Part shown: in pieces, positions 2,161 to 23,645 of the stretch | How the letters are laid out: each line of letters starts with the position of its first letter | Position numbering within the stretch: the first letter of the stretch is position 1 | IMG/VR virus record: IMGVR_UViG_3300033070_001497 | Coordinates: 1-64,000 of that record | DNA: 64,000 bases | Direction: 5' to 3' (one strand) | DNA from: a virus | Taxonomy: Duplodnaviria > Caudoviricetes | The notes under the pieces: generated by a model | Database searches by the model: none | The model's input: the letters and a program-made list of their open reading frames with translations, nothing else | What the model was told of the DNA's origin: nothing | Program-made: the position numbers and the translations under genes

Positions 2161-2586
2161 ATGCGGTAGATACACCACAAGCTGACATCGGTCTCACGGA
2201 GAGACCTCACCCCTGGGTACCAGGCGGTTCAATCGGCACATGCACTCATCGATTTCGGCTTCCAACACCCGGAAGCTTACACTGAGTGGCACCGATCCAA
2301 CTACATCGCGATGCTCTCAGTTGCCAATGAGTCAGAACTCCTGGCACTCTTGGATAAGGCCCAGGCGAGAGGCCTCCGGGCCACTGGCTTCCATGAGCCT
2401 GACCTGGACGGGCAACTCACAGCCATCTGCATAGAGCCTTGCGAAGCAACTTCGAAGCTCGTCTCGAATCTCCCACTGCTCCTTCGTGAGCCCAAACCGG
2501 TCCATTCGTCTAGCGGTAAGGCGGCGCTCTCTAAAAGCGAAAACACGGGTTCGAATCCCGTATGGGCCTCAGACTCAAACCCATGA
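2161..2586 (+). CDS. peptidyl-tRNA hydrolase, Pth2-like, with in-frame TAG at codon 3
   Basis: ATG CGG TAG ATA CAC CAC AAG CTG... reads MR*IHHKLTSVSRRDLTPGYQAVQSAHA...FHEPDLDGQLTAICIEP...LVSNLPLL, a Pth2 signature. The track ORF from 2311 lacks the RRDL..G..AVQSAHA segment. Confidence 0.8.
2499..2569 (+). tRNA. amber suppressor tRNA (anticodon CTA) on a Glu/Gln-like body
   Basis: Acceptor GGTCCAT/ATGGGCC, D-stem GTCT/AGGC, anticodon arm CGCT-CTCTAAA-AGCG (CTA at 2531-2533), T-arm ACGGG-TTCGAAT-CCCGT. Confidence 0.88.
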
Positions 2587-4272: not shown

Positions 4273-6333
4273 ATGGAAGACACACTGGTGAAAGTCCGGA
4301 GATTCTCTAACCTGAACGAGCTCAGGCTCTCCGATCTACCCGCGTACAGATACGTGCTGATCAATCCATCGGAATCGCCGACGTGCATCTACAAGGCCAT
4401 ACCTGGCATCGAGAAGGTCGCCCGGTTCGTGGCCAGGATCAACAACTGGAACAGGACTCCGTCTCTTGACATCGACCTCTGGTTGCTGGACGATGATGGG
4501 ATGATCAGGTCAGCGACCGGCGGGCCCATCGAGCTCGATCTCCCGAAATTCACGATGCTCTTCGATCCGAGGGACAAACGCACGAGCAGCCATGTGATCA
4601 GGATAGTCGAAGGCTCGACCGACTTCGACGTTGATCTGTTAGGCAGCTTCATCGAGAAGATGCCGATCAAGGAGACCGCATTCGGCGATTTCTACGTCGA
4701 TGTCTTCGGTTGGAGGATCGATGTGCCCAAGTTCCTTGCCAGCGGTAAGCTGGTCGATTCGTTGCGCTCGTTCTTTGAGATCAGCGGCAAGTGGCAGGAC
4801 CAAGAGCAGATCAGTCGGTACCTCGGTCCGATCCTGATGCCACCGATCAAACCGGATCCGAAGGCTGGGATCACGAAGGCCCTGCTTGCGCTCGAGAAGT
4901 TCTACCAGGCCGAGAAGAGTTCAAGCTCCAAGATCGCTTACAGGGTACTCGTGGATGCCGCGAAGAGGACCATCGGTGGGCTGAAGATCTCGGTCTGCTT
5001 CAATTCGATCTTCTCCCAGGTCACAACACAGGAGCAGTTCAGCGAGAAATGCTCGGAGCTGTCAAAGCTCCTGTTCATGGGTGGCCGGCAGTACTACTGG
5101 ACCGCGGATCAATTCCTGACCAGGGTGGTCGATTCCGATTCGCTCAAGGACGTCAAGAAGTCCGCCATCAAACGCAGGCAGACCGGAGCCTTCAACAAGA
5201 TCATGGCCGACCTCGACTTCATCGAGATCGACAGGGACAAATACCCAAAGACACACGAGGCCGTCTACAACGGCGACATCCCAGTCGGCACCTTCTTCAG
5301 GAAGACCGGCGAGACATACTTCGCCTACAACGACAGCTGGGACCTCTGGGAGGAGATGCTCACGTACCACCATGACATCGCCATCCAGATCGCCAAGGAG
5401 GCCTCATCAAGGAGCACGTACGAGAAGGACCTCCTGTCCTACTTCCAGTTCACCCTCCACACGCTGCCGGAGTACCTTGCCAAGCACACTGGCAAGCCTT
5501 GGACTGGGATACCGAAGGTGGTGAAGAGCGCGAACGAACTTGAGCCGCCAAGTGAGGATCGGCCCGGCACTACCAAGACACGCAGCGCGCTGACTCCGAT
5601 AGTCGACAACGAGAACAACACCGTCACCGTCCCTTACGTGACCATGTCGGTCTACGGCAGGAACACGACCTACTGTTATGGTCTGGACTTCAACGTCCTG
5701 AGGCGAGGCTTCTCTTTCGAAGGAAGCGCAGTGACAAAGGACGTCGAGGAGAAGCTCAACGGCCGTGACGATTATGGCCTCATGTTCTACACGCTGACCG
5801 GATCTGACAGCAACACCGGTTACCCGACCTTCCTCATCATCTTCGAGAGGCTCCATGACTCAACTCGCGTCCACTTCCACAGGACCCACTCGATGAGGTC
5901 CAAACAGGGCGAGAACAACCCAGTCCACAACTGGACCAGGTCAGGGTACAAATGGATGGTCGGCAACGTGGCCTTTGACCGGATCAAGGCCCAACAAGGA
6001 GACCTCGCTTTCGTGGAAATCGACAAAGTGCCAGATCCCGATCCGGACAGGAAGACAGTCGCGTTCGATCCCAACGACGAGAACTACATCGATCCGCGAC
6101 CGCGGTACGTCAACAGCTACGACAGCCACACCTTCGGTGAGAAGGTGCTCTTCTTCCCGTACCTCAAGAAGGACAAACAGAATGTGCTCGGATACGTTAC
6201 GCTGCCGCATGCTGTAGGGCTCACACACAAGGAGCACATGGCCCGCGCCATACCTGCAGGAACGTATGAGATCAGGCAGTGCAAGTCATGGGAAGCCAAC
6301 CCACGAGGCATCTGGAGCTACAGGATCGACTGA
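4273..6333 (+). CDS. large hypothetical protein with a C-terminal QQGD...H..H...IPAGTYEIR (cupin-like) domain
   Basis: 686-aa ORF; C-terminal motif of a small, widespread phage domain. Confidence 0.7.
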   Translation: MEDTLVKVRRFSNLNELRLSDLPAYRYVLINPSESPTCIYKAIPGIEKVARFVARINNWNRTPSLDIDLWLLDDDGMIRSATGGPIELDLPKFTMLFDPRDKRTSSHVIRIVEGSTDFDVDLLGSFIEKMPIKETAFGDFYVDVFGWRIDVPKFLASGKLVDSLRSFFEISGKWQDQEQISRYLGPILMPPIKPDPKAGITKALLALEKFYQAEKSSSSKIAYRVLVDAAKRTIGGLKISVCFNSIFSQVTTQEQFSEKCSELSKLLFMGGRQYYWTADQFLTRVVDSDSLKDVKKSAIKRRQTGAFNKIMADLDFIEIDRDKYPKTHEAVYNGDIPVGTFFRKTGETYFAYNDSWDLWEEMLTYHHDIAIQIAKEASSRSTYEKDLLSYFQFTLHTLPEYLAKHTGKPWTGIPKVVKSANELEPPSEDRPGTTKTRSALTPIVDNENNTVTVPYVTMSVYGRNTTYCYGLDFNVLRRGFSFEGSAVTKDVEEKLNGRDDYGLMFYTLTGSDSNTGYPTFLIIFERLHDSTRVHFHRTHSMRSKQGENNPVHNWTRSGYKWMVGNVAFDRIKAQQGDLAFVEIDKVPDPDPDRKTVAFDPNDENYIDPRPRYVNSYDSHTFGEKVLFFPYLKKDKQNVLGYVTLPHAVGLTHKEHMARAIPAGTYEIRQCKSWEANPRGIWSYRID

Positions 6334-9567: not shown

Positions 9568-9707
9568 CTTCGCCGTTTCACGGATTCGGCCGAAGTGTTA
9601 TGTTTGTCGTCCTAAACTAGTAAATGGCATCGTTCCTTGGGTCACTAAGCAGATAGACATAAAAGGTGGACATGTCTGCTGCTATCTATCCACTAACACA
9701 AACCAGC

Positions 9708-10982
9708 ATGAAAGAGGTAAAGTTGATCTGTGTCACGGAGGAAAATAACAACAAGATCTACAACATGAAAGAGGATCCTGGTGGATCCACGTTCACGGCC
9801 CAATGGGGCCGGGTCGGAGGCACGCTAGCCAGCAAGCAATATCCCATGCGCGAATGGGACAAGATCTACAACGAGAAGACCGGAAAGATCCGGAACGGGT
9901 ACATCTACAAGGACATGACCCATCTCTTCGCAGTCGAGGCGCCCGCTGCCGATGGAAGCCCATCGGCTCCAACCGTCAGGCAGATGATCGCGAGCGGGAG
10001 GCACTCGACTGTGAAGGACATCATGACACGGCTCCTGGCATTCGCCAAGAAGTCGATCCAGATGAACTACACCGTCAGCTCCGAAGCGGTCACACAGGCA
10101 CAGGTAGACGAGGCACAGCGCCAACTCGATGAGATCGCTAAGCTCGGTTACAAGGATCAGACCGTGCAGGAGATCAACCGCAAGCTGGTTGACTTCTTCC
10201 AGGTGGTGCCTCGGAAGATGAAGAAGGTGAGCGATCACCTGATCCCATTGGACGGCGAGGATCACTCCAAGCTATTCGATGACATCATCATGGAGGAGCA
10301 GAACACCCTGGACGTTATGGCCGGCCAGGTGACCATGCAAGACAAGGACAAGAAGGCGGCCAACGAGCCCAAGGCGGTCACACAAGCAGACATCCTCGAC
10401 CAGATGGGCCTCGAGATGGAGCCTGTCACAGACCCGAAGGCGATCGCGGAGATCAAAGCCCAGATGCAATCCAAGGCCAAGATGTTCAAACAAGCCTTCC
10501 GGGTGGTCAATAAGCGCACCAGCAAGGTCTACGAGGAACACATCAACAAGGCCCCGGTCAAGAAGAGCGAGCTCTTCTGGCACGGCTCACGCTCGGAGAA
10601 CTGGACCTCCATCATGGAGAAAGGTCTCCTCATCCGGCCATCTGGCGCGGCTTACACTGGATCGATGTTCGGCGACGGCATCTACTTCGCATCGGAGTTC
10701 GACAAGTCGCTCGGTTACACATCGATCAACTCCTCGAGATGGGCAGGCGGCAACTCAAACGTGGCTTTCCTCGCCCTCTACCGTGTGCACATCGGCAAGC
10801 AGTATGTGACGCAGAACTCTGACGGTTCGCTGTGTCATTCGAAGCTCCAGAAGCTCGGTGGGTATGACTCAACCCATGGCAAGAAAGGCAGCTGGTTGGC
10901 ACGCGACGAGTACATCGTCTACACCCCACAGCAATGCACCATCGAGTACCTCGTTGAGGTGGAAGGCAGCCAATACTCATGA
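9708..10982 (+). CDS. poly(ADP-ribose) polymerase with WGR, regulatory and catalytic domains
   Basis: NNNKIY...AQWGRVG (WGR), FFQVVPRK (regulatory), FWHGSR, GSMFGDGIYFA, KSLGY, DEYIVY (H-Y-E triad). Confidence 0.88.
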   Translation: MKEVKLICVTEENNNKIYNMKEDPGGSTFTAQWGRVGGTLASKQYPMREWDKIYNEKTGKIRNGYIYKDMTHLFAVEAPAADGSPSAPTVRQMIASGRHSTVKDIMTRLLAFAKKSIQMNYTVSSEAVTQAQVDEAQRQLDEIAKLGYKDQTVQEINRKLVDFFQVVPRKMKKVSDHLIPLDGEDHSKLFDDIIMEEQNTLDVMAGQVTMQDKDKKAANEPKAVTQADILDQMGLEMEPVTDPKAIAEIKAQMQSKAKMFKQAFRVVNKRTSKVYEEHINKAPVKKSELFWHGSRSENWTSIMEKGLLIRPSGAAYTGSMFGDGIYFASEFDKSLGYTSINSSRWAGGNSNVAFLALYRVHIGKQYVTQNSDGSLCHSKLQKLGGYDSTHGKKGSWLARDEYIVYTPQQCTIEYLVEVEGSQYS

Positions 10983-12433: not shown

Positions 12434-14446
12434 ATGGAAAGACCGTACCTGATGGGCCTCAACGAGGCCCAACTCGAGGCTGTGCTCAACACCGAAGGGC
12501 CAAACATGGTCATAGCTGGCCCGGGCTCAGGCAAGACGCGTGTTCTCACGACGCGCATCGCACACCTCGTGGCAGAGGGCGTGGACCCGTTCAGGATCCT
12601 GGCCCTGACATTCACGAACAAGGCTGCCAAGGAGATGAAGTCGAGGATCTCGAAGCTTCTAGAAGGATCGACGAGCTCTGACTCCGTGTGGGCCGGCACG
12701 TTCCACAGCGTCTTCGCTAGGGCCCTGCGCCTGAACGCTGAGCGCATCGGCTACACCCCAGATTTCTCGATCTACGACTCAGACGACACTCGGTCGTTGA
12801 TCAAATCGGTTGTCAAGTCGATGAGGTTGGACGAGAAGCTCTACAAGCCCGCACTCATCCAGAACAGGATAAGCCAGGCCAAGAACGCGATGATAGGGCC
12901 GTTGGAGTACGCCGAGAATGAGCGCAGGACTGGGTTCGACGAAGAGAGCGGCAGGCCAAGGATCGCCGACATCTACGAGGAGTATGCGTTCCGTTGCTTC
13001 AAGTCGAACGCCATGGACTTCGATGACCTGCTCTTCAACATGGCCCTCATGCTCAGGGACCACGACGACATCCGAGAGCAGTACCAACAGAGGTTCAGCC
13101 ATGTCCTAGTCGATGAGTACCAGGACACGAACGCTGCCCAGTTCGACATCGTGCGCCAGCTAGTCGAGAAGCACAGGAACATCACCGTAGTTGGAGACGA
13201 CAGCCAGAGCATCTACTCCTTCCGAGGAGCCAAGGTCGGCAACATGCTCCGCTTCCTGGAGGATTACCCAGACCACAAGCTGCTCAAGCTCGAGCAGAAC
13301 TACCGCAGCATCGGCGCCATCGTAGACGCGGCCAACTCCGTCATCACGAACAACAAGGACCGGATCGATAAGACCATCTGGACCGAGAATTCGGCTGGTG
13401 ATAGGATCTCGATACACCTCGCGAACAGCGAACAGGACGAGGCCGACTACGTAGCGCGCTGCATAGCAGCCATCGCGAAGGGAAAGGGAGCCAAGCCGTC
13501 TGAATTCGCCGTCCTCTACCGCACGAACGCACAGAGCCGCTCGATAGAGACAGCCCTCTCAGCCAAGGCCATCCCTTACCGGGTGTACGGCGGCATCAGC
13601 TTCTACCAGCGCAAGGAGGTGAAGGACCTCATCGCGTACATGCGGCTCGCTTGCAACCCGAACGACGAGGAGGCTCTGAAACGAGTGATCAACTACCCAA
13701 CACGAGGCATCGGCAATTCGACCGTCGATCGGCTGTTGGCCATAAGCGGCACGCGGAAACTCGGGATCTGGGACGCCATGGACCAGCACCTATTCGACGC
13801 TGGCCTGGGAGATTCCACCCTGAAGAAAGTGAGCGACTTCATCGCGAAGATCAAGGGCTTCCAGGCCGTGGCCAAGGGCCCAGCTTCGGATGCAGTCGAC
13901 CACATCGCCGATTCGTCTGGCGTGATGTCCGAGCTCGGATCTGACCTCAGCCCTGAGGGCCAGGAAAGGCACGACAACGCACAGCAGCTCGTATCGGCCG
14001 CCAAGGAGTTCAATGAGCGGAGGCCAAGCGCGCCTCTCGCAGATTTCCTTGCTGAGATCGCTCTTGTGACCGGATCGGATTCCTCGGACGATGGAACGGT
14101 CAGCCTCATGACGGCCCATGCATCCAAGGGACTGGAATTCCCGTACGTCTTCATCATCGGTCTCGAGGAAGGGCTCTTCCCGAACTCGCTTGGGATGTCT
14201 ACCCGAGAGGACCTCGAGGAGGAGCGCCGGCTCTTCTACGTCGCATTGACCAGGGCCGAGCGCTACGTCTCGCTCGTCCACTCGCAGTCCAGGTTCCGTT
14301 GGGGCCAGGTCGATTACCCTGCGCCGAGCAGGTTCCTCCGTGAAGTGGGCGACGGCGTCACCCGGACACAGAGCCCTCCGAGGCCCAAGCCAGCTACCAC
14401 GCCTCCCTGGGCCCGAGCATTGAAGGACAGAGATGATTCTTTCTGA
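12434..14446 (+). CDS. uvrD: UvrD/PcrA superfamily-1 DNA helicase
   Basis: AGPGSGKT, LTFTNKAA, VDEYQDTN, VGDDSQSIYSFRGA, LEQNYRS, TAHASKGLEF, EERRLFYVALTRA. Confidence 0.93.
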   Translation: MERPYLMGLNEAQLEAVLNTEGPNMVIAGPGSGKTRVLTTRIAHLVAEGVDPFRILALTFTNKAAKEMKSRISKLLEGSTSSDSVWAGTFHSVFARALRLNAERIGYTPDFSIYDSDDTRSLIKSVVKSMRLDEKLYKPALIQNRISQAKNAMIGPLEYAENERRTGFDEESGRPRIADIYEEYAFRCFKSNAMDFDDLLFNMALMLRDHDDIREQYQQRFSHVLVDEYQDTNAAQFDIVRQLVEKHRNITVVGDDSQSIYSFRGAKVGNMLRFLEDYPDHKLLKLEQNYRSIGAIVDAANSVITNNKDRIDKTIWTENSAGDRISIHLANSEQDEADYVARCIAAIAKGKGAKPSEFAVLYRTNAQSRSIETALSAKAIPYRVYGGISFYQRKEVKDLIAYMRLACNPNDEEALKRVINYPTRGIGNSTVDRLLAISGTRKLGIWDAMDQHLFDAGLGDSTLKKVSDFIAKIKGFQAVAKGPASDAVDHIADSSGVMSELGSDLSPEGQERHDNAQQLVSAAKEFNERRPSAPLADFLAEIALVTGSDSSDDGTVSLMTAHASKGLEFPYVFIIGLEEGLFPNSLGMSTREDLEEERRLFYVALTRAERYVSLVHSQSRFRWGQVDYPAPSRFLREVGDGVTRTQSPPRPKPATTPPWARALKDRDDSF

Positions 14447-14835: not shown

Positions 14836-14907
14836 GGCCTGATAGTTTAACTGGTAGAACGCTCGCATCGTAAGCGAGTGGTGTCGATTCAACTTCGACT
14901 CTGGCCT
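14836..14907 (+). tRNA. tRNA-Thr(CGT)
   Basis: Anticodon arm CTCGC-ATCGTAA-GCGAG; one acceptor mismatch. Confidence 0.75.
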
Positions 14908-14943: not shown

Positions 14944-15603
14944 ATGTTACGGCAATTGATCTGTTCGAAGTGTAATTCCTTGTTTGAGATTGATGTGAAG
15001 GAATCGGCATGGCGGTTCGGAGATTACCGTAGGACATGTTCATCGAAATGTGCTAGAAGCAGAATGCTTTCGTCAGAATCGAAAGAGAAGAAACGGAAGT
15101 CAATGACCAAGAATCTTGGTCCCTATTGTCGGCTCAGTTCGATGGCAAAAAAGTGCAAGTGGTGTAAAAGACCGCATCGATCAGCAGATCGAAAATACTG
15201 CAGCGATCAGTGCTTGCTGAAAGCACAGAGTAAATCTGCAACAGATATTAACCTTGGTGGAAATCGAAACCGTTATGCTAAAGGCTGGTATGATTCACCG
15301 ATCGCCGGTAAAGTCTACTTGGAAAGCTCTTGGGAACTTGAATTAGCTAAGATTCTTGATGAGCTGGTCATTCAATGGATTCGTCCAGATTCAATGAATT
15401 GGATCGATGACAATGGAGTCACACATAAGTATTTTGCTGACTTCTATCTGATGGAATCTAATCTCTACCTGGATCCTAAAGCACCAGCTTTCCAAGCCAG
15501 AGACTCAAGAAAAATAGAATTGGTATCATCACAGAACAATGTCATAGTTCTTGTTCTAGGAAAGGATCAAATCACCAAGGAGTATATTCGAACGATAGCG
15601 TGA
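14944..15603 (+). mobile_element. free-standing PD-(D/E)xK (TnsA-like) homing endonuclease with Zn-finger N-terminus
   Basis: ESSWE...YFADFYL...YLDPK and CxxC motifs; visibly AT-richer than its flanks; inserted in the tRNA array. Confidence 0.65.
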
Positions 15604-15834
15604 GGGAAAGAGGACCCACCGCTGTTGGCTCGTCCAACAGAGGAAGTTCGCGGCATCCATCTAGGAGGAAGGAGACGCAAGTCGCTCGCACTTCCGCAAC
15701 ATGGGATGCAACCGAAACAGTGGCTAGGCTGGGTGCCTAGAGGCCGGAAAACGCCGCAAGGCGAAACAGCCACGGGTACGGGCTCAGACAAATGGTGGGA
15801 TAAACCAGAACCGCGGCTACGCTCGCCCTCGCGC
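15598..15834 (+). ncRNA. rnpB: minimal RNase P RNA
   Basis: P1 GCGTGAGGG/CCCTCGCGC, P2 CCCACCG/TGGTGGG, P3 CTGTTGG/CCAACAG, GAGGAA-G(T)TCGCGG pairing with AGAA-CCGCGGCT (P4 with bulged U), AGACAAATG, and L15 GGTA. Confidence 0.8.
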
Positions 15835-15847
15835 ATATTACAATACC

Positions 15848-16388
15848 AAGGGGTCACACTGCACGACCAACTACGGATAAACATGGACGTCGAAAGACGC
15901 GAATGGAGTGGGATTCGAAGCCCACAAAACCGACCCCTGACAAGGTGCCCAACTGCAACACAAACCAGCTCTTCCAAAGCAGAGGTCCGGTGTTCGAATC
16001 CCGGTGGGTCCGCTACTAAACAAACGGACTCATAGTGTAATGGCTAGCACGCTTAAAGCGGCACCTGCCCACAAGGTACTCAACCGCATTCAACTTGTCC
16101 CGCCACAACTGGGACAAAACAGATGGGTACCTGACAAGGCGTCACACAGCAATCCAAACGCAACATTGAGATGCAAACCCATGACGCCTGATAAGGTGAC
16201 AATCAGCAAGACACGCAACGAAAACGAGGAGTTCTAGGTCCGAATCCTGGCTGGCCCACTAAAAACGTCAATGGGCCGGTGGAGTAACGGTAACTCGCCC
16301 CGATGCAAAAGTCACCTGACAGGGCATCTAACAGCAGTTCTATCTTGACCGCGGCTTCGGCCGTTGATGAGACCAAAACAGATGCCCG
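15848..16388 (+). repeat. array of six stem-closed RNA units (AGG-stem...CAGCA/CTGCA...AAA-stem-CCTG)
   Basis: Units at 15848-15939, 15942-16067, 16073-16133, 16136-16190, 16193-16318 and 16321-16388, with covarying closing stems. Confidence 0.75.
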
Positions 16389-16393
16389 TATTC

Positions 16394-16466
16394 GCTTCCA
16401 TAGTTCAGTAGGTGAGAACAGGTCCTTGGTAAGGATCAGACAAGAGTTCGATTCTCTTTGGGAGCT
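16394..16466 (+). tRNA. tRNA-Thr(GGT)
   Basis: GGTCC-TTGGTAA-GGATC; canonical arms. Confidence 0.88.
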
Positions 16467-16469
16467 CAA

Positions 16470-16682
16470 ATGAAACTAGTCAACGAATTACCGAATCTGT
16501 TCGAACGAGCACAGTTCTTTGTTCGGGCTCTTCGAGATGACACTCGATTGTCGAACGAGGAGATCGAGATGGAAGCTGTCTCTGAAATCTGTGACGAGCT
16601 GCTAGATTCGATCGATCTGACAGATCGTAAAGAGCTCAAGAGAGCTCTACGGAACATGTACTTCCTAGGCCAACTCAAATGA
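16470..16682 (+). CDS. hypothetical protein
   Basis: 70-aa ORF between the tRNA and the SLOG gene. Confidence 0.6.
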   Translation: MKLVNELPNLFERAQFFVRALRDDTRLSNEEIEMEAVSEICDELLDSIDLTDRKELKRALRNMYFLGQLK

Positions 16683-17356: not shown

Positions 17357-17526
17357 TCGTCGGTAAGGAAACTGGGTACAACCCGCGGATAGGTGACCGT
17401 CGCTGGGAACGTAACAACGGAAATCGTGCGAAATCATTTGGGCAAAGTCGACTCACCCCATTTGGTAGTACCACGGCTCACCGAAAGCAAGCGCCAGCTA
17501 GGATCGTTCGATTCGATCACCGACGA
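17357..17526 (+). ncRNA. 170-nt RNA closed by a tRNA acceptor/T-arm minihelix
   Basis: TCGTCGGT/ACCGACGA plus GATCG-TTCGATT-CGATC. Confidence 0.5.
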
Positions 17527-18595: not shown

Positions 18596-18664
18596 TTGGC
18601 AGTAGCTTAACCAAGAGCGCCGGCCTACGAAGCCAGAGGTACGGAGTTGATTCCGTCTGTCAGA
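18596..18664 (+). tRNA. degenerate tRNA-Arg(ACG)
   Basis: CCGGC-CTACGAA-GCCAG; D-loop lacks GG; T-loop non-canonical. Confidence 0.5.
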
Positions 18665-19122: not shown

Positions 19123-19237
19123 TCACAGGTTTTGCGACGCTGAGAAGCGATAGCGGAAATAGTTCAACCCGGCCAGAACGCCGGCCAGAATGCCGGAAAC
19201 CGCGGTTCAAATCCCGATCTGCGAGTGGAACCTGTGA
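19123..19237 (+). ncRNA. tRNA-like module nested in an outer stem
   Basis: TCACAGGTT/AACCTGTGA encloses a D-arm, a CCGGC-CAGAAT-GCCGG arm (6-nt loop) and a TTCAAAT T-loop. Confidence 0.45.
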
Positions 19238-21497: not shown

Positions 21498-22193
21498 ATC
21501 AAAATCATTAGCAGCTTTCGGGACTACTACGATCGGCATGAGCTGAACGATCCGGTCTACGTGCGTGAGACGGTGGAGGTCAAGGATATCCCAACGCTCA
21601 GGGCCCATGAGCACTGGCTCGAGAAGTTGCGTGGCGAGTTGAAGTACTTCTTCCCTAACAAGAAGACTGGCTCGAGCGGAGGTTTCGTCGACGTAATGCC
21701 GAGCATGCTCGCTTTTTGTGGCAAAGCTTTCGTCTGGTACGAGTGCCACAGGAAGGAGCTCTTGTTCGACGACCACGATTCGCTCATGGAATTCGTCGGA
21801 AAGGAAAAATGGAACTATTGGCGCAAGGAGCAGAACCAATCTCGGGCCGAATGGGAGAGGCTGCAATTGGTCGGCGCTATCGAGCTCAACCACCTCCACT
21901 CAAGCCCAATAGTGCTGGTTACCAAGACCAAGCTGGCAAGGTTCTCCTATGGCAACCGGGTCGATTCGGCTGTCTCGGTCACTATCAACCCTAACCTGAA
22001 AGGCCTCGGGTTCAACCGTTACATGGGCGCCGATCAATGCCACCAGGAGATCGAGATGTTCATAGGCGGCGTGCTTGCGGCAAAGGAGAATACGAGCAAC
22101 TCAATGAACGACAAGGAGAAGATCCTGTCACATGGCATGGATCTACGCTGGTCGTTCAGGAACCCAGAACCACCGAAACGCAAACGCAAATGA
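21498..22193 (+). CDS. hypothetical protein (possible ATC start)
   Basis: The frame extends 21 codons upstream of GTG 21561 as (I)KIISSFRDYYD. Confidence 0.65.
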   Translation: MKIISSFRDYYDRHELNDPVYVRETVEVKDIPTLRAHEHWLEKLRGELKYFFPNKKTGSSGGFVDVMPSMLAFCGKAFVWYECHRKELLFDDHDSLMEFVGKEKWNYWRKEQNQSRAEWERLQLVGAIELNHLHSSPIVLVTKTKLARFSYGNRVDSAVSVTINPNLKGLGFNRYMGADQCHQEIEMFIGGVLAAKENTSNSMNDKEKILSHGMDLRWSFRNPEPPKRKRK

Positions 22194-22363
22194 GGAAGAA
22201 GCGGTGCACGAAATGCGGAACACTGACCCACGATTGGGAGGATGCCGGAGGAATCCGATGTTGGCCATGTGGCCGCCAAGCTAGGATCCAAGAAAATCCA
22301 ACCATAGCATTCAACCCACATGAGAGTTCTTTTCCTCGACATCGACGGAGTTCTCAACAGTGA
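22190..22363 (+). CDS. small Zn-ribbon protein
   Basis: MRKKRCTKCG...CWPC; ATGA-coupled. Confidence 0.5.
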   Translation: MRKKRCTKCGTLTHDWEDAGGIRCWPCGRQARIQENPTIAFNPHESSFPRHRRSSQQ

Positions 22364-22829
22364 TGATTGGGACGATCGTCTCCGTGACGACCGTGCCAAG
22401 CCGATCATCGATCAGTACCCTTATTGTCTGTTCGATCCAGACGCCATCTCGAGGCTCAACAGGATCCATGCTGAAACCAGCTGCTTGCTCGTTGTCTCAA
22501 GCATGTGGAGGACCGGGCACACAGAAACACAGCTCCAGGGCATCTTCGACCGGGTAGGAATCATTCCAAGGATCCACTCATACACTCCAATCGGACAGTT
22601 CCAACACCCATCTGGCCTCTGGTCAGCCGGGACCAGGGGAGAGGAGATCGCGGCTTGGCAACGCGAGAACGAGTTCAACTACGCCAACAACCGCTACGTC
22701 ATCTTGGACGATCTTAAGGACGAGTGGCTGGAGTGCCAGCTTCCGTACCTTGTACAGACCGATTTCGACTCTGGGCTCACCGATGAGTTGACCGATCGGG
22801 CAATAGCGATCCTGCTCGCGGCAAAGTAG
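22320..22829 (+). CDS. HAD-domain protein (RNA-repair 'Swiss army knife' type)
   Basis: LFLDIDGVLN, VVSSMWR, RGEEI..W, YVILDD. Confidence 0.8.
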   Translation: MRVLFLDIDGVLNSDDWDDRLRDDRAKPIIDQYPYCLFDPDAISRLNRIHAETSCLLVVSSMWRTGHTETQLQGIFDRVGIIPRIHSYTPIGQFQHPSGLWSAGTRGEEIAAWQRENEFNYANNRYVILDDLKDEWLECQLPYLVQTDFDSGLTDELTDRAIAILLAAK

Positions 22830-22841
22830 TATTTTTGCCGC

Positions 22842-23645
22842 ATGCATTACATCATCCAGGAGAACCTCTTCAGGGAGCCGAACTACGACATGCTGGTCTC
22901 GATCCTTGAGAGGCTGCGATCGACACAGGGCCCAGACGGAGGATTCCAGGTGGTGAAGATCGTGCCGTTCACGAGGGAGATCGTGTTCGAGCGCACGCCG
23001 CCCACGAGCAACGTCTTCTGCTTCGGTTCGGTCAAGATGGCGAGGATCGCTTCCGACTATGGTTGGACACCCGGCTCGTTCATGAACGAGAACCACGACT
23101 ATCGTGTCTACAGCGAGCGGTACGGAAAGGACCAACTCCTCAATGGAGATTCCATCGTATGTAGATTCGCCGACAGTTTCGCTCCGCCAGGGCACATCTT
23201 CTTCGCGCGGCCATGCGAGGACACCAAGACCTTCTCTGGGCAGCTCTTCATCAAGGACTCATGGGATGAGTTCGTGAAGAACAGCCTCGGCAGCGGACAC
23301 ACGACCACACTGAACGCCGACACCGCGATCCAGATCGCCTCGCTCAAGGAGATCCAACGCGAGGTGAGGGTCTGGATAGTGAAAGGACAGGTAGTCACTG
23401 CATCCCAGTACAGGCTTGGCACCCAGGTCATCTACTCCGAGTGCACCGAGCCCTACATCCTCGACTACGCTAGGGAGATGGCAAAGGTCTACCAGCCAGC
23501 GGAGGCCTTCGTCCTGGACGTCGCGATGACGGACAAGGGCCCAAGGATCATAGAGGTCAGCTGCATCAACTGTGTCGGCTTCTACAGGGCCGACATGTCG
23601 AAGCTGATCAATTCCCTTGAAGAGGCTTTCACCGTTCAGCCGTAA
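22842..23645 (+). CDS. ATP-grasp domain protein (DUF4343/R2K-like)
   Basis: FARPCEDTKTFSG, REVRVWIVKG..VTASQY, FVLDVA...IIEV. Confidence 0.75.
   Translation: MHYIIQENLFREPNYDMLVSILERLRSTQGPDGGFQVVKIVPFTREIVFERTPPTSNVFCFGSVKMARIASDYGWTPGSFMNENHDYRVYSERYGKDQLLNGDSIVCRFADSFAPPGHIFFARPCEDTKTFSGQLFIKDSWDEFVKNSLGSGHTTTLNADTAIQIASLKEIQREVRVWIVKGQVVTASQYRLGTQVIYSECTEPYILDYAREMAKVYQPAEAFVLDVAMTDKGPRIIEVSCINCVGFYRADMSKLINSLEEAFTVQP

What the first reader, a model, noticed from the sequence alone, without database searches (positions are those of the whole stretch)
15942..16318. Two circularly permuted tRNA modules (Y-RNA/YrlA-like tRNA mimics) inside the array
Seen: unit 2 reads anticodon arm GCT-CTTCCAA-AGC, T-arm (TTCGAAT), acceptor 3' strand TGGGTCCG, linker, acceptor 5' strand CGGACTCA, then D-arm GTGT-AATGGCTA-GCAC. 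Unit 5 reads T-arm CTAGG-TCCGAAT-CCTGG, CTGGCCCA-loop-TGGGCCGG, then D-arm GAGT-AACGGTA-ACTC. In both, the 3' half precedes the 5' half. Known: bacterial YrlA Y RNAs have this T-arm, closed acceptor, D-arm order. Inference: these are tRNA decoys (for example for anticodon nucleases) or permuted precursors; unit 2 still has a Gly(TCC)-like loop. The canonical Ro-binding sequence is not evident, so this may be a distinct class.
Basis: partly seen in the sequence, partly recalled or inferred. Interest (0 to 1): 0.82.

Follow-up and report, generated by a model that had tools for sequence, protein, structure and literature searches.

The report
Two sealed tRNA mimics in phage
A large phage that probably infects Flavobacteria encodes, inside its tRNA operon, two small RNA modules folded like tRNAs written back to front with the amino-acid end sealed by a loop; they are real, kept by selection, almost certainly cannot be charged, and look like an uncatalogued phage cousin of the tRNA-mimicking Y RNAs of bacteria.

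Summary
Confirmed. Unit 2 (15942-16068) and unit 5 (16193-16319) each read T arm, loop-sealed acceptor stem, D arm. ARAGORN calls the re-permuted unit 2 tRNA-Gly(UCC), and calls the unit 5 body a tRNA once a loop is supplied.

A syntenic relative (L042; UvrD 62% identical) has both modules. Between the two phages there are 9 two-sided and 5 one-sided compensatory changes against 2 lost pairs.

They are not decaying tRNA pieces and almost certainly not working tRNA genes. The sealing loop is free to vary (12-13 nt here, UUCG or AAU in the relative), and unit 5 has no anticodon loop.

Each module sits on a 7-bp clamp helix followed by an ACAGCAA-like box. I found the same handle, with the same permuted tRNA cargo, in Salmonella phage Felix O1 beside a DUF2828 gene.

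The modules fail the Rfam YrlA model. No Ro60-type gene lies in the 109 kb available (about 38% of the genome). Here the array follows an RNase P-like RNA.

Best reading: non-chargeable, YrlA-like tRNA mimics. Partner and target are unknown.

This scan has noted the same RNA family before on other phage DNA. I found no paper describing it.

The parts
15943..15949 (+). Unit 2 clamp helix, 5' strand (AGGUGCC)
   Evidence: Pairs with 16060-16066. Predicted in every fold. Identical in L042.
15951..15958 (+). Unit 2 handle box AACUGCAA (AACAGCAA in L042)
   Evidence: Follows the clamp in all 10 cassettes of the window and L042. Same position as TACAGCAA in the Felix O1 RNAs.
15966..15982 (+). Unit 2 anticodon arm: 5-bp stem with one A.A mismatch, loop CUUCCAA (Gly UCC, anticodon 15973-15975)
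   Evidence: The L042 loop is CUGCCAA (Gly GCC), with 3 two-sided compensatory changes in the stem.
15987..16004 (+). Unit 2 T arm, CCGG(U)G UUCGAAU CCCGG
16005..16032 (+). Unit 2 sealed acceptor: 3' strand 16005-16012, 12-nt loop 16013-16024, 5' strand 16025-16032
   Evidence: 8 bp. Predicted in all folds. Two two-sided and one one-sided change against L042.
16035..16050 (+). Unit 2 D arm, GUGU AAUGGCUA GCAC
16060..16066 (+). Unit 2 clamp helix, 3' strand (GGCACCU)
16194..16209 (+). Unit 5 clamp 5' strand (AGGUGAC, 16194-16200) and handle box AAUCAGCAA (16201-16209)
   Evidence: A 19-nt run is identical in L042.
16225..16229 (+). Unit 5 anticodon-stem 3' strand (CGAGG)
   Evidence: Pairs with 16298-16302. 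G-C changes to U-A and C.A changes to U-A in L042. In L095, C.A changes to U-A.
16234..16250 (+). Unit 5 T arm, CUAGG UCCGAAU CCUGG
16251..16279 (+). Unit 5 sealed acceptor: 3' strand 16251-16258, 13-nt loop 16259-16271, 5' strand 16272-16279
   Evidence: 8 bp. Two two-sided and two one-sided changes against L042. The loop holds 6 of the 12 differences from the 98.6%-identical relatives.
16282..16296 (+). Unit 5 D arm, GAGU AACGGUA ACUC
16298..16302 (+). Unit 5 anticodon-stem 5' strand (CCCCG); the handle takes the place of the anticodon loop
16311..16317 (+). Unit 5 clamp helix, 3' strand (GUCACCU)
15849..16390 (+). Whole array of six clamp-closed cassettes (units 1-6), joined by short GAYA-type linkers (longer after unit 2), that holds the two modules
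   Evidence: L042 has units 1, 2, 5, 4 in that order.
15604..15828 (+). RNase P-like RNA directly upstream (context, not part of the modules)
   Evidence: RF00373 31.8 bits, E 3.5e-7. L042 copy 43.1 bits. Both are below the gathering score.

Best explanation
Units 2 and 5 are two non-chargeable tRNA mimics. Each is an L-shaped tRNA body (T arm, D arm, acceptor stem) whose acceptor end is sealed by a loop. The RNA ends lie at the other side of the body and are held together by a 7-bp clamp helix followed by an ACAGCAA-type box, here called the handle.

Unit 5 is opened in the anticodon stem, the exact YrlA topology. Unit 2 is opened at the 26/27 hinge and still displays a complete Gly anticodon arm.

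They are made as part of one long tRNA-operon transcript, as two of six handle-bearing cassettes. They are probably cut out at the short linkers.

By analogy with YrlA and with the handle RNAs beside DUF2828 (reported Ro60-like) genes in other phages, the handle most likely docks a protein. The tRNA-shaped cargo would then engage something that recognises tRNA shape, such as a processing, repair or modification enzyme or a nuclease.

Shown: the fold, its conservation, the sealed and freely varying acceptor loop, and the shared design with Felix O1.
Inferred: co-transcription, excision, protein docking, and the target.
For: Fold and tRNA likeness:
- ARAGORN recognises the re-permuted sequences.
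- The elbow nucleotides are kept.

Selection on the fold:
- Window against L042: unit 2 has 6 two-sided and 2 one-sided compensatory changes with 1 loss. Unit 5 has 3 two-sided and 3 one-sided with 1 loss.
- In the 98.6%-identical relatives, the two changes inside unit 5 helices repair or keep pairs.

Not chargeable:
- The sealing loop is 12-13 nt here, UUCG on a 6-bp stem and AAU on a 7-bp stem in L042, and AGGU in Felix O1.
- It takes 6 of the 12 differences among close relatives.
- Unit 5 has no anticodon loop.
- Unit 2 has G2-C71, A3-U70 and G73 where this phage's own Gly tRNAs have C2-G71 and U73. Bacterial Gly identity rules are from my own knowledge.

Handle family:
- All 10 cassettes share clamp, A[ACU]C[ACU]GCA box, A-rich 3' segment and CCUG.
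- Unit 4 hits Rfam RF01414 at 20.4 bits. So do four RNAs just downstream of the Felix O1 DUF2828 gene, at 13-20 bits.
- Felix O1 RNA no. 4 carries hairpin, T arm, sealed acceptor and D arm on that handle, the design of unit 2.
- A distant AT-rich phage has three such RNAs between its tRNAs and its DUF2828 gene.

Operon: no + strand terminator-like site between 14400 and 21500.
Against: - No TROVE, DUF2828 or RtcB gene in the 109 kb held. The record is only about 38% of the genome, so this is inconclusive.
- TROVE was found in only 3 of 151 sampled Flavobacteriales genomes, so a host Ro60 partner is not an easy way out.
- The Rfam YrlA model does not match.
- The link to the handle family rests on a short motif, weak RF01414 scores and shared architecture, not on a significant model hit.
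- Only two independent lineages of this array were found.
- There are no expression, end-mapping or binding data.
- The long sealing loops in this window (12-13 nt on 8 bp) could still be cut by RNase P, as happens in M. smegmatis YrlA (PMC4201824).
Confidence: 0.55

Rival explanations
1. Decoys for host tRNA-targeting defences. The sealed mimics, especially unit 2 with its Gly anticodon arm, soak up an anticodon nuclease or another tRNA-directed toxin and so protect real tRNAs. No dedicated protein partner is needed.
For: - A canonical 7-nt anticodon loop C-U-N-C-C-A-A is kept in both lineages, while the stem below it changed at three pairs.
- The wobble base differs (UCC against GCC) but Gly identity is kept.
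- The phage invests heavily in tRNAs: 21 in the window.
- No Ro60-like gene was seen.
Against: - Unit 5 and most cassettes show no anticodon loop.
- The Felix O1 counterpart hairpin has no canonical 7-nt anticodon loop.
- No Gly-specific nuclease is implicated.
- The conserved handle is not explained by a pure decoy role.
Confidence: 0.2
2. RNase P-linked elements. The modules work with the RNase P-like RNA encoded directly upstream, as uncleavable substrate mimics that regulate or titrate RNase P, or as fold-defining punctuation that guides processing of the array.
For: - The RNase P-like RNA and the array are adjacent in both lineages.
- tRNA-shaped domains with an acceptor/T-arm stack are what RNase P recognises. 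M. smegmatis YrlA is cut by RNase P (PMC4201824).
Against: - The whole operon is syntenic between the two phages, so adjacency carries little weight.
- Felix O1 and four other DUF2828 phage records have the handle RNAs or the partner gene but no RNase P-like RNA.
- The 3-4 nt sealing loops in L042 leave no leader to cut.
Confidence: 0.13
3. True circularly permuted or split tRNA genes. The sealing loop is removed by RNase P and a 3' nuclease, CCA is added, and a two-piece or re-ligated tRNA-Gly decodes.
For: - The re-permuted unit 2 is called tRNA-Gly(UCC) by ARAGORN.
- The 8-bp stems with 12-13 nt loops in this window resemble the cleavable M. smegmatis YrlA acceptor (PMC4201824).
Against: - L042 seals the same stems with UUCG or AAU.
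- The loop is the fastest-changing spot.
- Unit 5 has no anticodon loop.
- Unit 2 lacks the acceptor and discriminator pattern of the phage's own Gly tRNAs.
- No bulge-helix-bulge at the clamp, and no RtcB.
- Canonical tRNA-Gly(UCC) and tRNA-Gly(GCC) genes are already present.
Confidence: 0.06
4. Functionless remnants of tandem tRNA duplications that are simply decaying.
For: - A 3' half, spacer and 5' half is what a truncated tandem duplication would leave.
- The junction of two neighbouring Pro tRNAs also passes my loose descriptor.
Against: - Nine two-sided compensatory changes keep the helices.
- Both modules persist at 62% UvrD identity, while two of the other cassettes (units 3 and 6) are absent from L042 and the rest are reordered.
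- The outer clamp helix and box are conserved.
- An independent phage lineage has the same design.
Confidence: 0.03

Closest known systems
YrlA, the tRNA-like Y RNA bound by Rsr/Ro60 in bacteria and mycobacteriophages (Rfam RF02553; Chen et al. 2014, PMC4201824; Wang et al. 2018, bioRxiv 10.1101/312249)
   Same: Order T arm, loop-closed acceptor-like stem, D arm. RNA ends on the anticodon side, joined by a helix that serves as a protein-binding module. Unit 5 has exactly this topology. A phage setting is known for YrlA.
   Different: No match to the YrlA covariance model. No conserved GNCGAAN0-1G motif. A different handle (clamp plus ACAGCAA-type box). No TROVE gene in the 109 kb held. Arranged as a six-cassette array inside a tRNA operon behind an RNase P-like RNA. 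Unit 2 keeps a full anticodon arm and is opened at the 26/27 hinge.
Clamp-helix plus ACAGCAA small RNAs next to DUF2828 genes in phages, e.g. Salmonella phage Felix O1 (AF320576, 23873-24705). Found in no paper searched; noted repeatedly by this scan.
   Same: Clamp helix, (N)ACAGCAA box right after its 5' strand, A-rich segment before the 3' strand, then YUG. Location among tRNA genes. Felix O1 RNA no. 4 carries hairpin, T arm, sealed 7-bp acceptor and D arm, like unit 2. A second lineage is in L084.
   Different: No DUF2828 gene is seen here. The box is degenerate in some cassettes (CUGCAA in unit 2). The cassettes are fused head to tail by 4-nt linkers instead of being scattered among tRNAs. 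An RNase P-like RNA precedes the array.
Dictyostelium Class I RNAs (Rfam RF01414; Kjellin et al. 2021, PMC7919456)
   Same: A short terminal stem followed by ...ACAGCAA, and an A-rich segment before the 3' strand. Cassette 4 of this array scores 20.4 bits on the model.
   Different: The score is far below the gathering threshold (41.5 bits). Those are eukaryotic nuclear genes, with no tRNA-like cargo described. The resemblance may be convergent.
Circularly permuted tRNA genes of Cyanidioschyzon merolae and other algae (Soma et al. 2007; from my own knowledge)
   Same: The 3' half lies upstream of the 5' half in the gene, and the acceptor strands are joined by an intervening sequence.
   Different: Those mature through a bulge-helix-bulge cut, circularisation, then RNase P/Z cuts to give normal chargeable tRNAs. 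Here there is no bulge-helix-bulge, no ligase, the relative has tetraloop-sealed acceptors, and one module has no anticodon loop.
Two-piece (permuted) tmRNA of alpha-proteobacteria and some cyanobacteria (from my own knowledge)
   Same: Gene order T arm, acceptor 3' strand, intervening segment, acceptor 5' strand.
   Different: ARAGORN finds no tmRNA. There is no tag reading frame, a full D arm is present, and the modules are only about 125 nt.

Membership tests
YrlA (Rfam RF02553) | Scores on the Rfam covariance model (gathering score 69 bits) | tested here: not met
   No hit at E<=10 anywhere in 15500-16500 or at the modules in a whole-record search. The best hit in the record is 13 bits, elsewhere.
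YrlA (Rfam RF02553) | tRNA-like domain in the order T arm, closed acceptor-like stem, D arm | tested here: met
YrlA (Rfam RF02553) | Encoded next to an Rsr/Ro60 (TROVE) gene | tested here: inconclusive
   No TROVE match in the 109-kb record. The record is estimated to be 38% complete.
YrlA (Rfam RF02553) | Conserved GNCGAAN0-1G motif in the Ro60-binding module (PMC4201824) | tested here: not met
   Absent from units 2 and 5, from the whole L042 array and from Felix O1 RNA no. 4. The one occurrence in the window is a GAAA-tetraloop hairpin in unit 1.
Phage clamp + ACAGCAA handle RNAs (uncatalogued; Felix O1 type) | Terminal clamp helix followed within 1-2 nt by an ACAGCAA-type box, an A-rich 3' segment, and YUG after the clamp | tested here: met
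   Seen in all 10 cassettes of the window and L042. CAGCAA is exact in unit 5 and in L042 units 2, 5 and 4; unit 2 here has CUGCAA. Compare Felix O1 and L084.
Phage clamp + ACAGCAA handle RNAs (uncatalogued; Felix O1 type) | Lies within or beside a phage tRNA cluster | tested here: met
Phage clamp + ACAGCAA handle RNAs (uncatalogued; Felix O1 type) | A DUF2828 gene (reported Ro60-like) nearby | tested here: inconclusive
   Not found by Pfam PF11443, by a custom HMM and tblastn from six phage members, or by hhalign against all 63 ORFs of 250 aa or more. About 62% of the genome is missing.
Phage clamp + ACAGCAA handle RNAs (uncatalogued; Felix O1 type) | A significant hit by one shared covariance model | tested here: inconclusive
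   RF01414 gives 20.4 bits for cassette 4 and 13-20 bits for the four Felix O1 RNAs, all below gathering. The cargo-bearing units 2 and 5 are too long for that model. I built no model of my own.
Circularly permuted tRNA genes (C. merolae type) | Bulge-helix-bulge at the joined termini, with a splicing endonuclease and ligase | tested here: not met
   The clamp is a plain 7-bp helix flanked by 8-16 nt single strands. No RtcB.
Circularly permuted tRNA genes (C. merolae type) | A complete tRNA with a removable intervening sequence at the acceptor | tested here: not met
   Unit 5 lacks an anticodon loop. L042 closes the acceptors with UUCG or AAU.
Permuted tmRNA | Detected as tmRNA with a tag peptide | tested here: not met
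   ARAGORN finds 21 tRNAs and no tmRNA. Rfam finds none.

The most novel reading that the evidence does not exclude
These sealed tRNA mimics work without any Ro60-type protein. Together with the RNase P-like RNA transcribed just ahead of them, they would form a phage RNA-only or new-partner system. It would present tRNA shapes, one with a live Gly anticodon loop, to host tRNA-directed enzymes or defence nucleases, as decoys or regulators. That would be a class of viral tRNA-mimic small RNA not described so far.
Probability: 0.2. Interest if true: 0.8.

Novelty: new variant of a known kind. Interest (0 to 1): 0.6.

Why it matters
tRNA mimicry by Y RNAs is known from a handful of bacteria and mycobacteriophages, always with Ro60, and what the tRNA-shaped domain does is still unknown.

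These modules show the same design on a different handle, in a T4-like jumbo phage that probably infects Flavobacteria. They sit inside the tRNA operon, with no Ro60-type gene in view and behind a phage RNase P-like RNA.

One module keeps a readable Gly anticodon loop. That gives a concrete handle for asking what such mimics bind: anticodon-directed enzymes, or enzymes that recognise the tRNA elbow.

If the wider handle family is what it seems, phages carry a common, uncatalogued class of small RNAs that display tRNA parts. That bears on the arms race over tRNA cleavage and repair.

Tried and rejected
Searches for relatives that found nothing useful:
- blastn of the region against 50,697 phage records: no match.
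- The upstream 219-aa ORF in IMG/VR: no relatives.
- The YAcAr gene in IMG/VR: two loci without tRNAs or the array.
- 22 UvrD-related IMG/VR loci (42% identity or less): no linker motif clusters.
- Linker pattern CCTGACAAGG..CCTGAYAAGG in IMG/VR: 16 hits. The two I read (a tandem repeat in L028, hairpins in L034) are unrelated, and none of the 16 lies in a tRNA cluster.
- A 20-mer of the RNase P-like RNA in IMG/VR and in JGI metagenomes: nothing.
- The contigs holding the 67%-identical YAcAr relative P0123 (L103-L108) are a different phage without the array.

Partner search:
- TROVE, RtcB, DUF2828, a custom DUF2828 HMM, tblastn and hhalign all found nothing in the 109 kb.
- The 686-aa orphan ORF 4273-6333 gave nothing in the PDB sequence search or the Atlas.
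- 23 distant related virus records have no DUF2828.

Method limits:
- My simple handle descriptor was too loose (0.8 hits per 10 kb in control loci) and missed Felix O1, so I did not use it.
- MAFFT misaligns the acceptor 3' strand when the sealing loops differ in length. I therefore counted pairs on a hand-anchored structural alignment in a script rather than building a covariance model.
- Thermodynamic folding alone is weak evidence: z = -1.2 for the window modules, and -3.6 and -2.7 for the L042 modules.

Origin: the re-permuted unit 2 is only 71% identical to the phage tRNA-Gly(UCC), barely above other tRNAs, so a recent copy is rejected.

Full report
**Setting.** The window is the first 64 kb of a 109-kb IMG/VR virus record, estimated to be 38% complete. 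It carries T4-type replication genes and 21 tRNA genes.
- Its UvrD helicase is closest (about 55%) to those of Flavobacteriales, so the host is probably a flavobacterium.
- Between tRNA-Thr(CGT) at 14836 and tRNA-Thr(GGT) at 16394 lie two things. One is a 219-aa endonuclease ORF with HNH/endonuclease PHROG hits. The other is an 800-nt stretch that folds as RNA rather than reading as a gene.
- That stretch begins with an RNase P-like RNA at 15604-15828 (RF00373, 31.8 bits, E 3.5e-7, below gathering). Six stem-closed cassettes follow, at 15849-16390.
- No + strand terminator-like site lies between 14400 and 21500, which fits one long transcript.

**The observation.**
- Unit 2 reads: clamp strand, AACUGCAA box, anticodon arm (loop CUUCCAA), T arm (UUCGAAU), acceptor 3' strand, 12-nt loop, acceptor 5' strand, U8-A9, D arm, G26, clamp strand.
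- Unit 5 reads: clamp strand, AAUCAGCAA box, anticodon-stem 3' strand, T arm (UCCGAAU), acceptor 3' strand, 13-nt loop, acceptor 5' strand, U8-G9, D arm, G26, anticodon-stem 5' strand, clamp strand.
- When the halves are swapped back, ARAGORN calls unit 2 tRNA-Gly(tcc). It accepts the unit 5 body once a loop is supplied.
- A loose descriptor for this layout gives 0.66 hits per shuffled window. In the real window it finds the two modules, one junction of neighbouring Pro tRNAs and one spurious site.

**Relatives.** DNA and pattern searches of phage, IMG/VR and JGI collections found nothing. Protein look-ups did.
- The nearest UvrD (62% identity) lies on a Logan contig, L042, with the same gene order. 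Downstream of it come tRNA-Thr(CGT), the RNase P-like RNA (43.1 bits), cassettes 1, 2, 5 and 4, then tRNA-Thr(GGT).
- The endonuclease ORF is absent there, so it is an insertion in the window's lineage.
- Three contigs 98.6% identical to the window over the array (L095-L097), and two near-copies of L042 (L099, L101), came from the YAcAr neighbour gene.

**Selection on the fold.** I anchored every helix by its sequence and counted pairs.
- Unit 2, window against L042: 16 pairs unchanged, 6 changed on both sides and kept, 2 changed on one side and kept, 1 lost, 1 gained.
- Unit 5: 19 unchanged, 3 two-sided, 3 one-sided, 1 lost, 1 gained.
- The anticodon stem of unit 2 changed at three consecutive pairs, while its loop stayed C-U-N-C-C-A-A (UCC here, GCC there).
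- In the 98.6% relatives, the two substitutions that fall in unit 5 helices turn C.A into U-A and C-G into U-G.
- RNAalifold and single-sequence folds recover the clamp and acceptor helices every time, and the T and D arms in part.
- These are therefore maintained structures.

**Why they are not working tRNAs.**
- The loop that seals the acceptor is 12-13 nt here. In L042 it is a UUCG tetraloop on 6 bp (unit 2) and AAU on 7 bp (unit 5).
- Among near-identical relatives it absorbs 6 of the 12 differences. It behaves as a mere closure, not as a processed spacer.
- Unit 5 has no anticodon loop.
- Unit 2 lacks the C2-G71 and U73 pattern of the phage's own two Gly tRNAs. Bacterial Gly identity rules are from my own knowledge.
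- There is no bulge-helix-bulge and no RtcB.
- M. smegmatis YrlA is cut by RNase P and receives CCA (PMC4201824). Cleavage of the longer loops in this window therefore cannot be excluded, but it cannot be the conserved function.

**The handle.** All ten cassettes of the two lineages begin (Y)AAGG + 3-5 variable bp + N + A[ACU]C[ACU]GCA. They end with an A-rich stretch, the complementary strand and CCUG.
- The clamp covaries between cassettes. Most cassettes are joined by only four bases, GAYA.
- Earlier notes of this scan pointed to a clamp-plus-ACAGCAA RNA family beside DUF2828 genes in phages, a protein family those notes describe as Ro60-like. I treated this as a lead and tested it.
- Felix O1 has a DUF2828 gene at 22118-23533 (69 bits). 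Four weak RF01414 hits follow within 1.2 kb, in its tRNA cluster. The same model gives 20.4 bits for cassette 4 here.
- Reading the Felix O1 sequence shows GACCNNN-UACAGCAA ... NNNGGUC-UGG handles. RNA no. 4 carries a hairpin, a T arm, a 7-bp acceptor sealed by AGGU, and a D arm. This is the design of unit 2.
- My descriptor finds that module at the same relative place in 22 of the 27 Felix-like loci, against one hit in 588 kb of control loci. Those loci are close kin, so they count as one lineage.
- A distant AT-rich phage (DUF2828 30% identical) has three clamp-UUACAGCAA RNAs between its tRNAs and the gene.

**What is missing here.**
- No TROVE, DUF2828 or RtcB is found in the 109 kb by Pfam, by a custom HMM, by tblastn or by hhalign. 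With 62% of the genome unseen this is inconclusive.
- TROVE is rare in sampled Flavobacteriales (3 of 151), so borrowing a host Ro60 is not an obvious answer.
- Felix O1 and four other DUF2828 phage records have no RNase P-like RNA. The RNase P adjacency is therefore particular to this lineage.

**Comparison with the known.**
- The modules work like YrlA in architecture; unit 5 matches it exactly. They fail membership: no hit on the Rfam model, no GNCGAAN0-1G motif, no Rsr gene in view.
- The literature searched knows phage TROVE proteins with tRNA-like partners (PMC4201824, PMC7824862, PMC12135203). I found nothing on DUF2828-linked RNAs or this handle.
- I class the finding as a new variant of a known kind.

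**Verdict.**
- Most likely these are non-chargeable tRNA mimics on a protein-docking handle, excised from the tRNA operon transcript. Partner and target are unknown.
- The decoy, RNase P-linked and true-tRNA readings remain as ranked rivals.

Noticed in passing
window 15604-15828; L042 11896-12097: A phage-encoded RNase P-like RNA of about 225 nt. It scores 31.8 and 43.1 bits on RF00373 (below gathering) and shares a 34-nt identical run between the two phages. One hairpin is present only in the window. It was not found in Felix O1 or in four other DUF2828 phage records.
   Followed up: partly
window 14944-15603: A 219-aa ORF with HNH/endonuclease PHROG hits sits between tRNA-Thr(CGT) and the RNase P-like RNA. 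It is absent at that spot in L042, so it is probably a homing-endonuclease insertion.
   Followed up: partly
window 15849-15941 (unit 1); L042 12114-12199: Cassette 1 carries a lone T-arm-like hairpin with an 8-nt loop NUUCGAAN. Its stem covaries between the phages (GUGGG/CCCAC against GCCGG/CCGGU).
   Followed up: partly
window 16259-16271: The 13-nt loop sealing the unit 5 acceptor holds half of all differences (6 of 12 in 877 nt) between the window and three 98.6%-identical metagenomic relatives.
   Followed up: yes
window 17357-17526, 18596-18664, 19123-19237: Further odd tRNA-like elements lie in the same operon: a 170-nt RNA closed by an acceptor/T-arm minihelix, a weak tRNA hit (34 bits), and a tRNA-like body inside an outer stem. 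The two I read (17357-17526, 19123-19237) show no ACAGCAA-type box; I did not read 18596-18664.
   Followed up: no
window 2499-2570: A tRNA with anticodon CUA (amber suppressor; ARAGORN labels it Pyl) is present in the phage.
   Followed up: no
L084 about 2680-2900: An AT-rich phage has three clamp + UUACAGCAA small RNAs in a row, between a four-tRNA cluster and its DUF2828 gene.
   Followed up: partly
window 9672-10982 and 12434-14446; L042 6813-8102: A PARP-domain gene lies upstream of UvrD in L042 (Pfam call). The window UvrD is closest to Flavobacteriales UvrD (about 55%).
   Followed up: no
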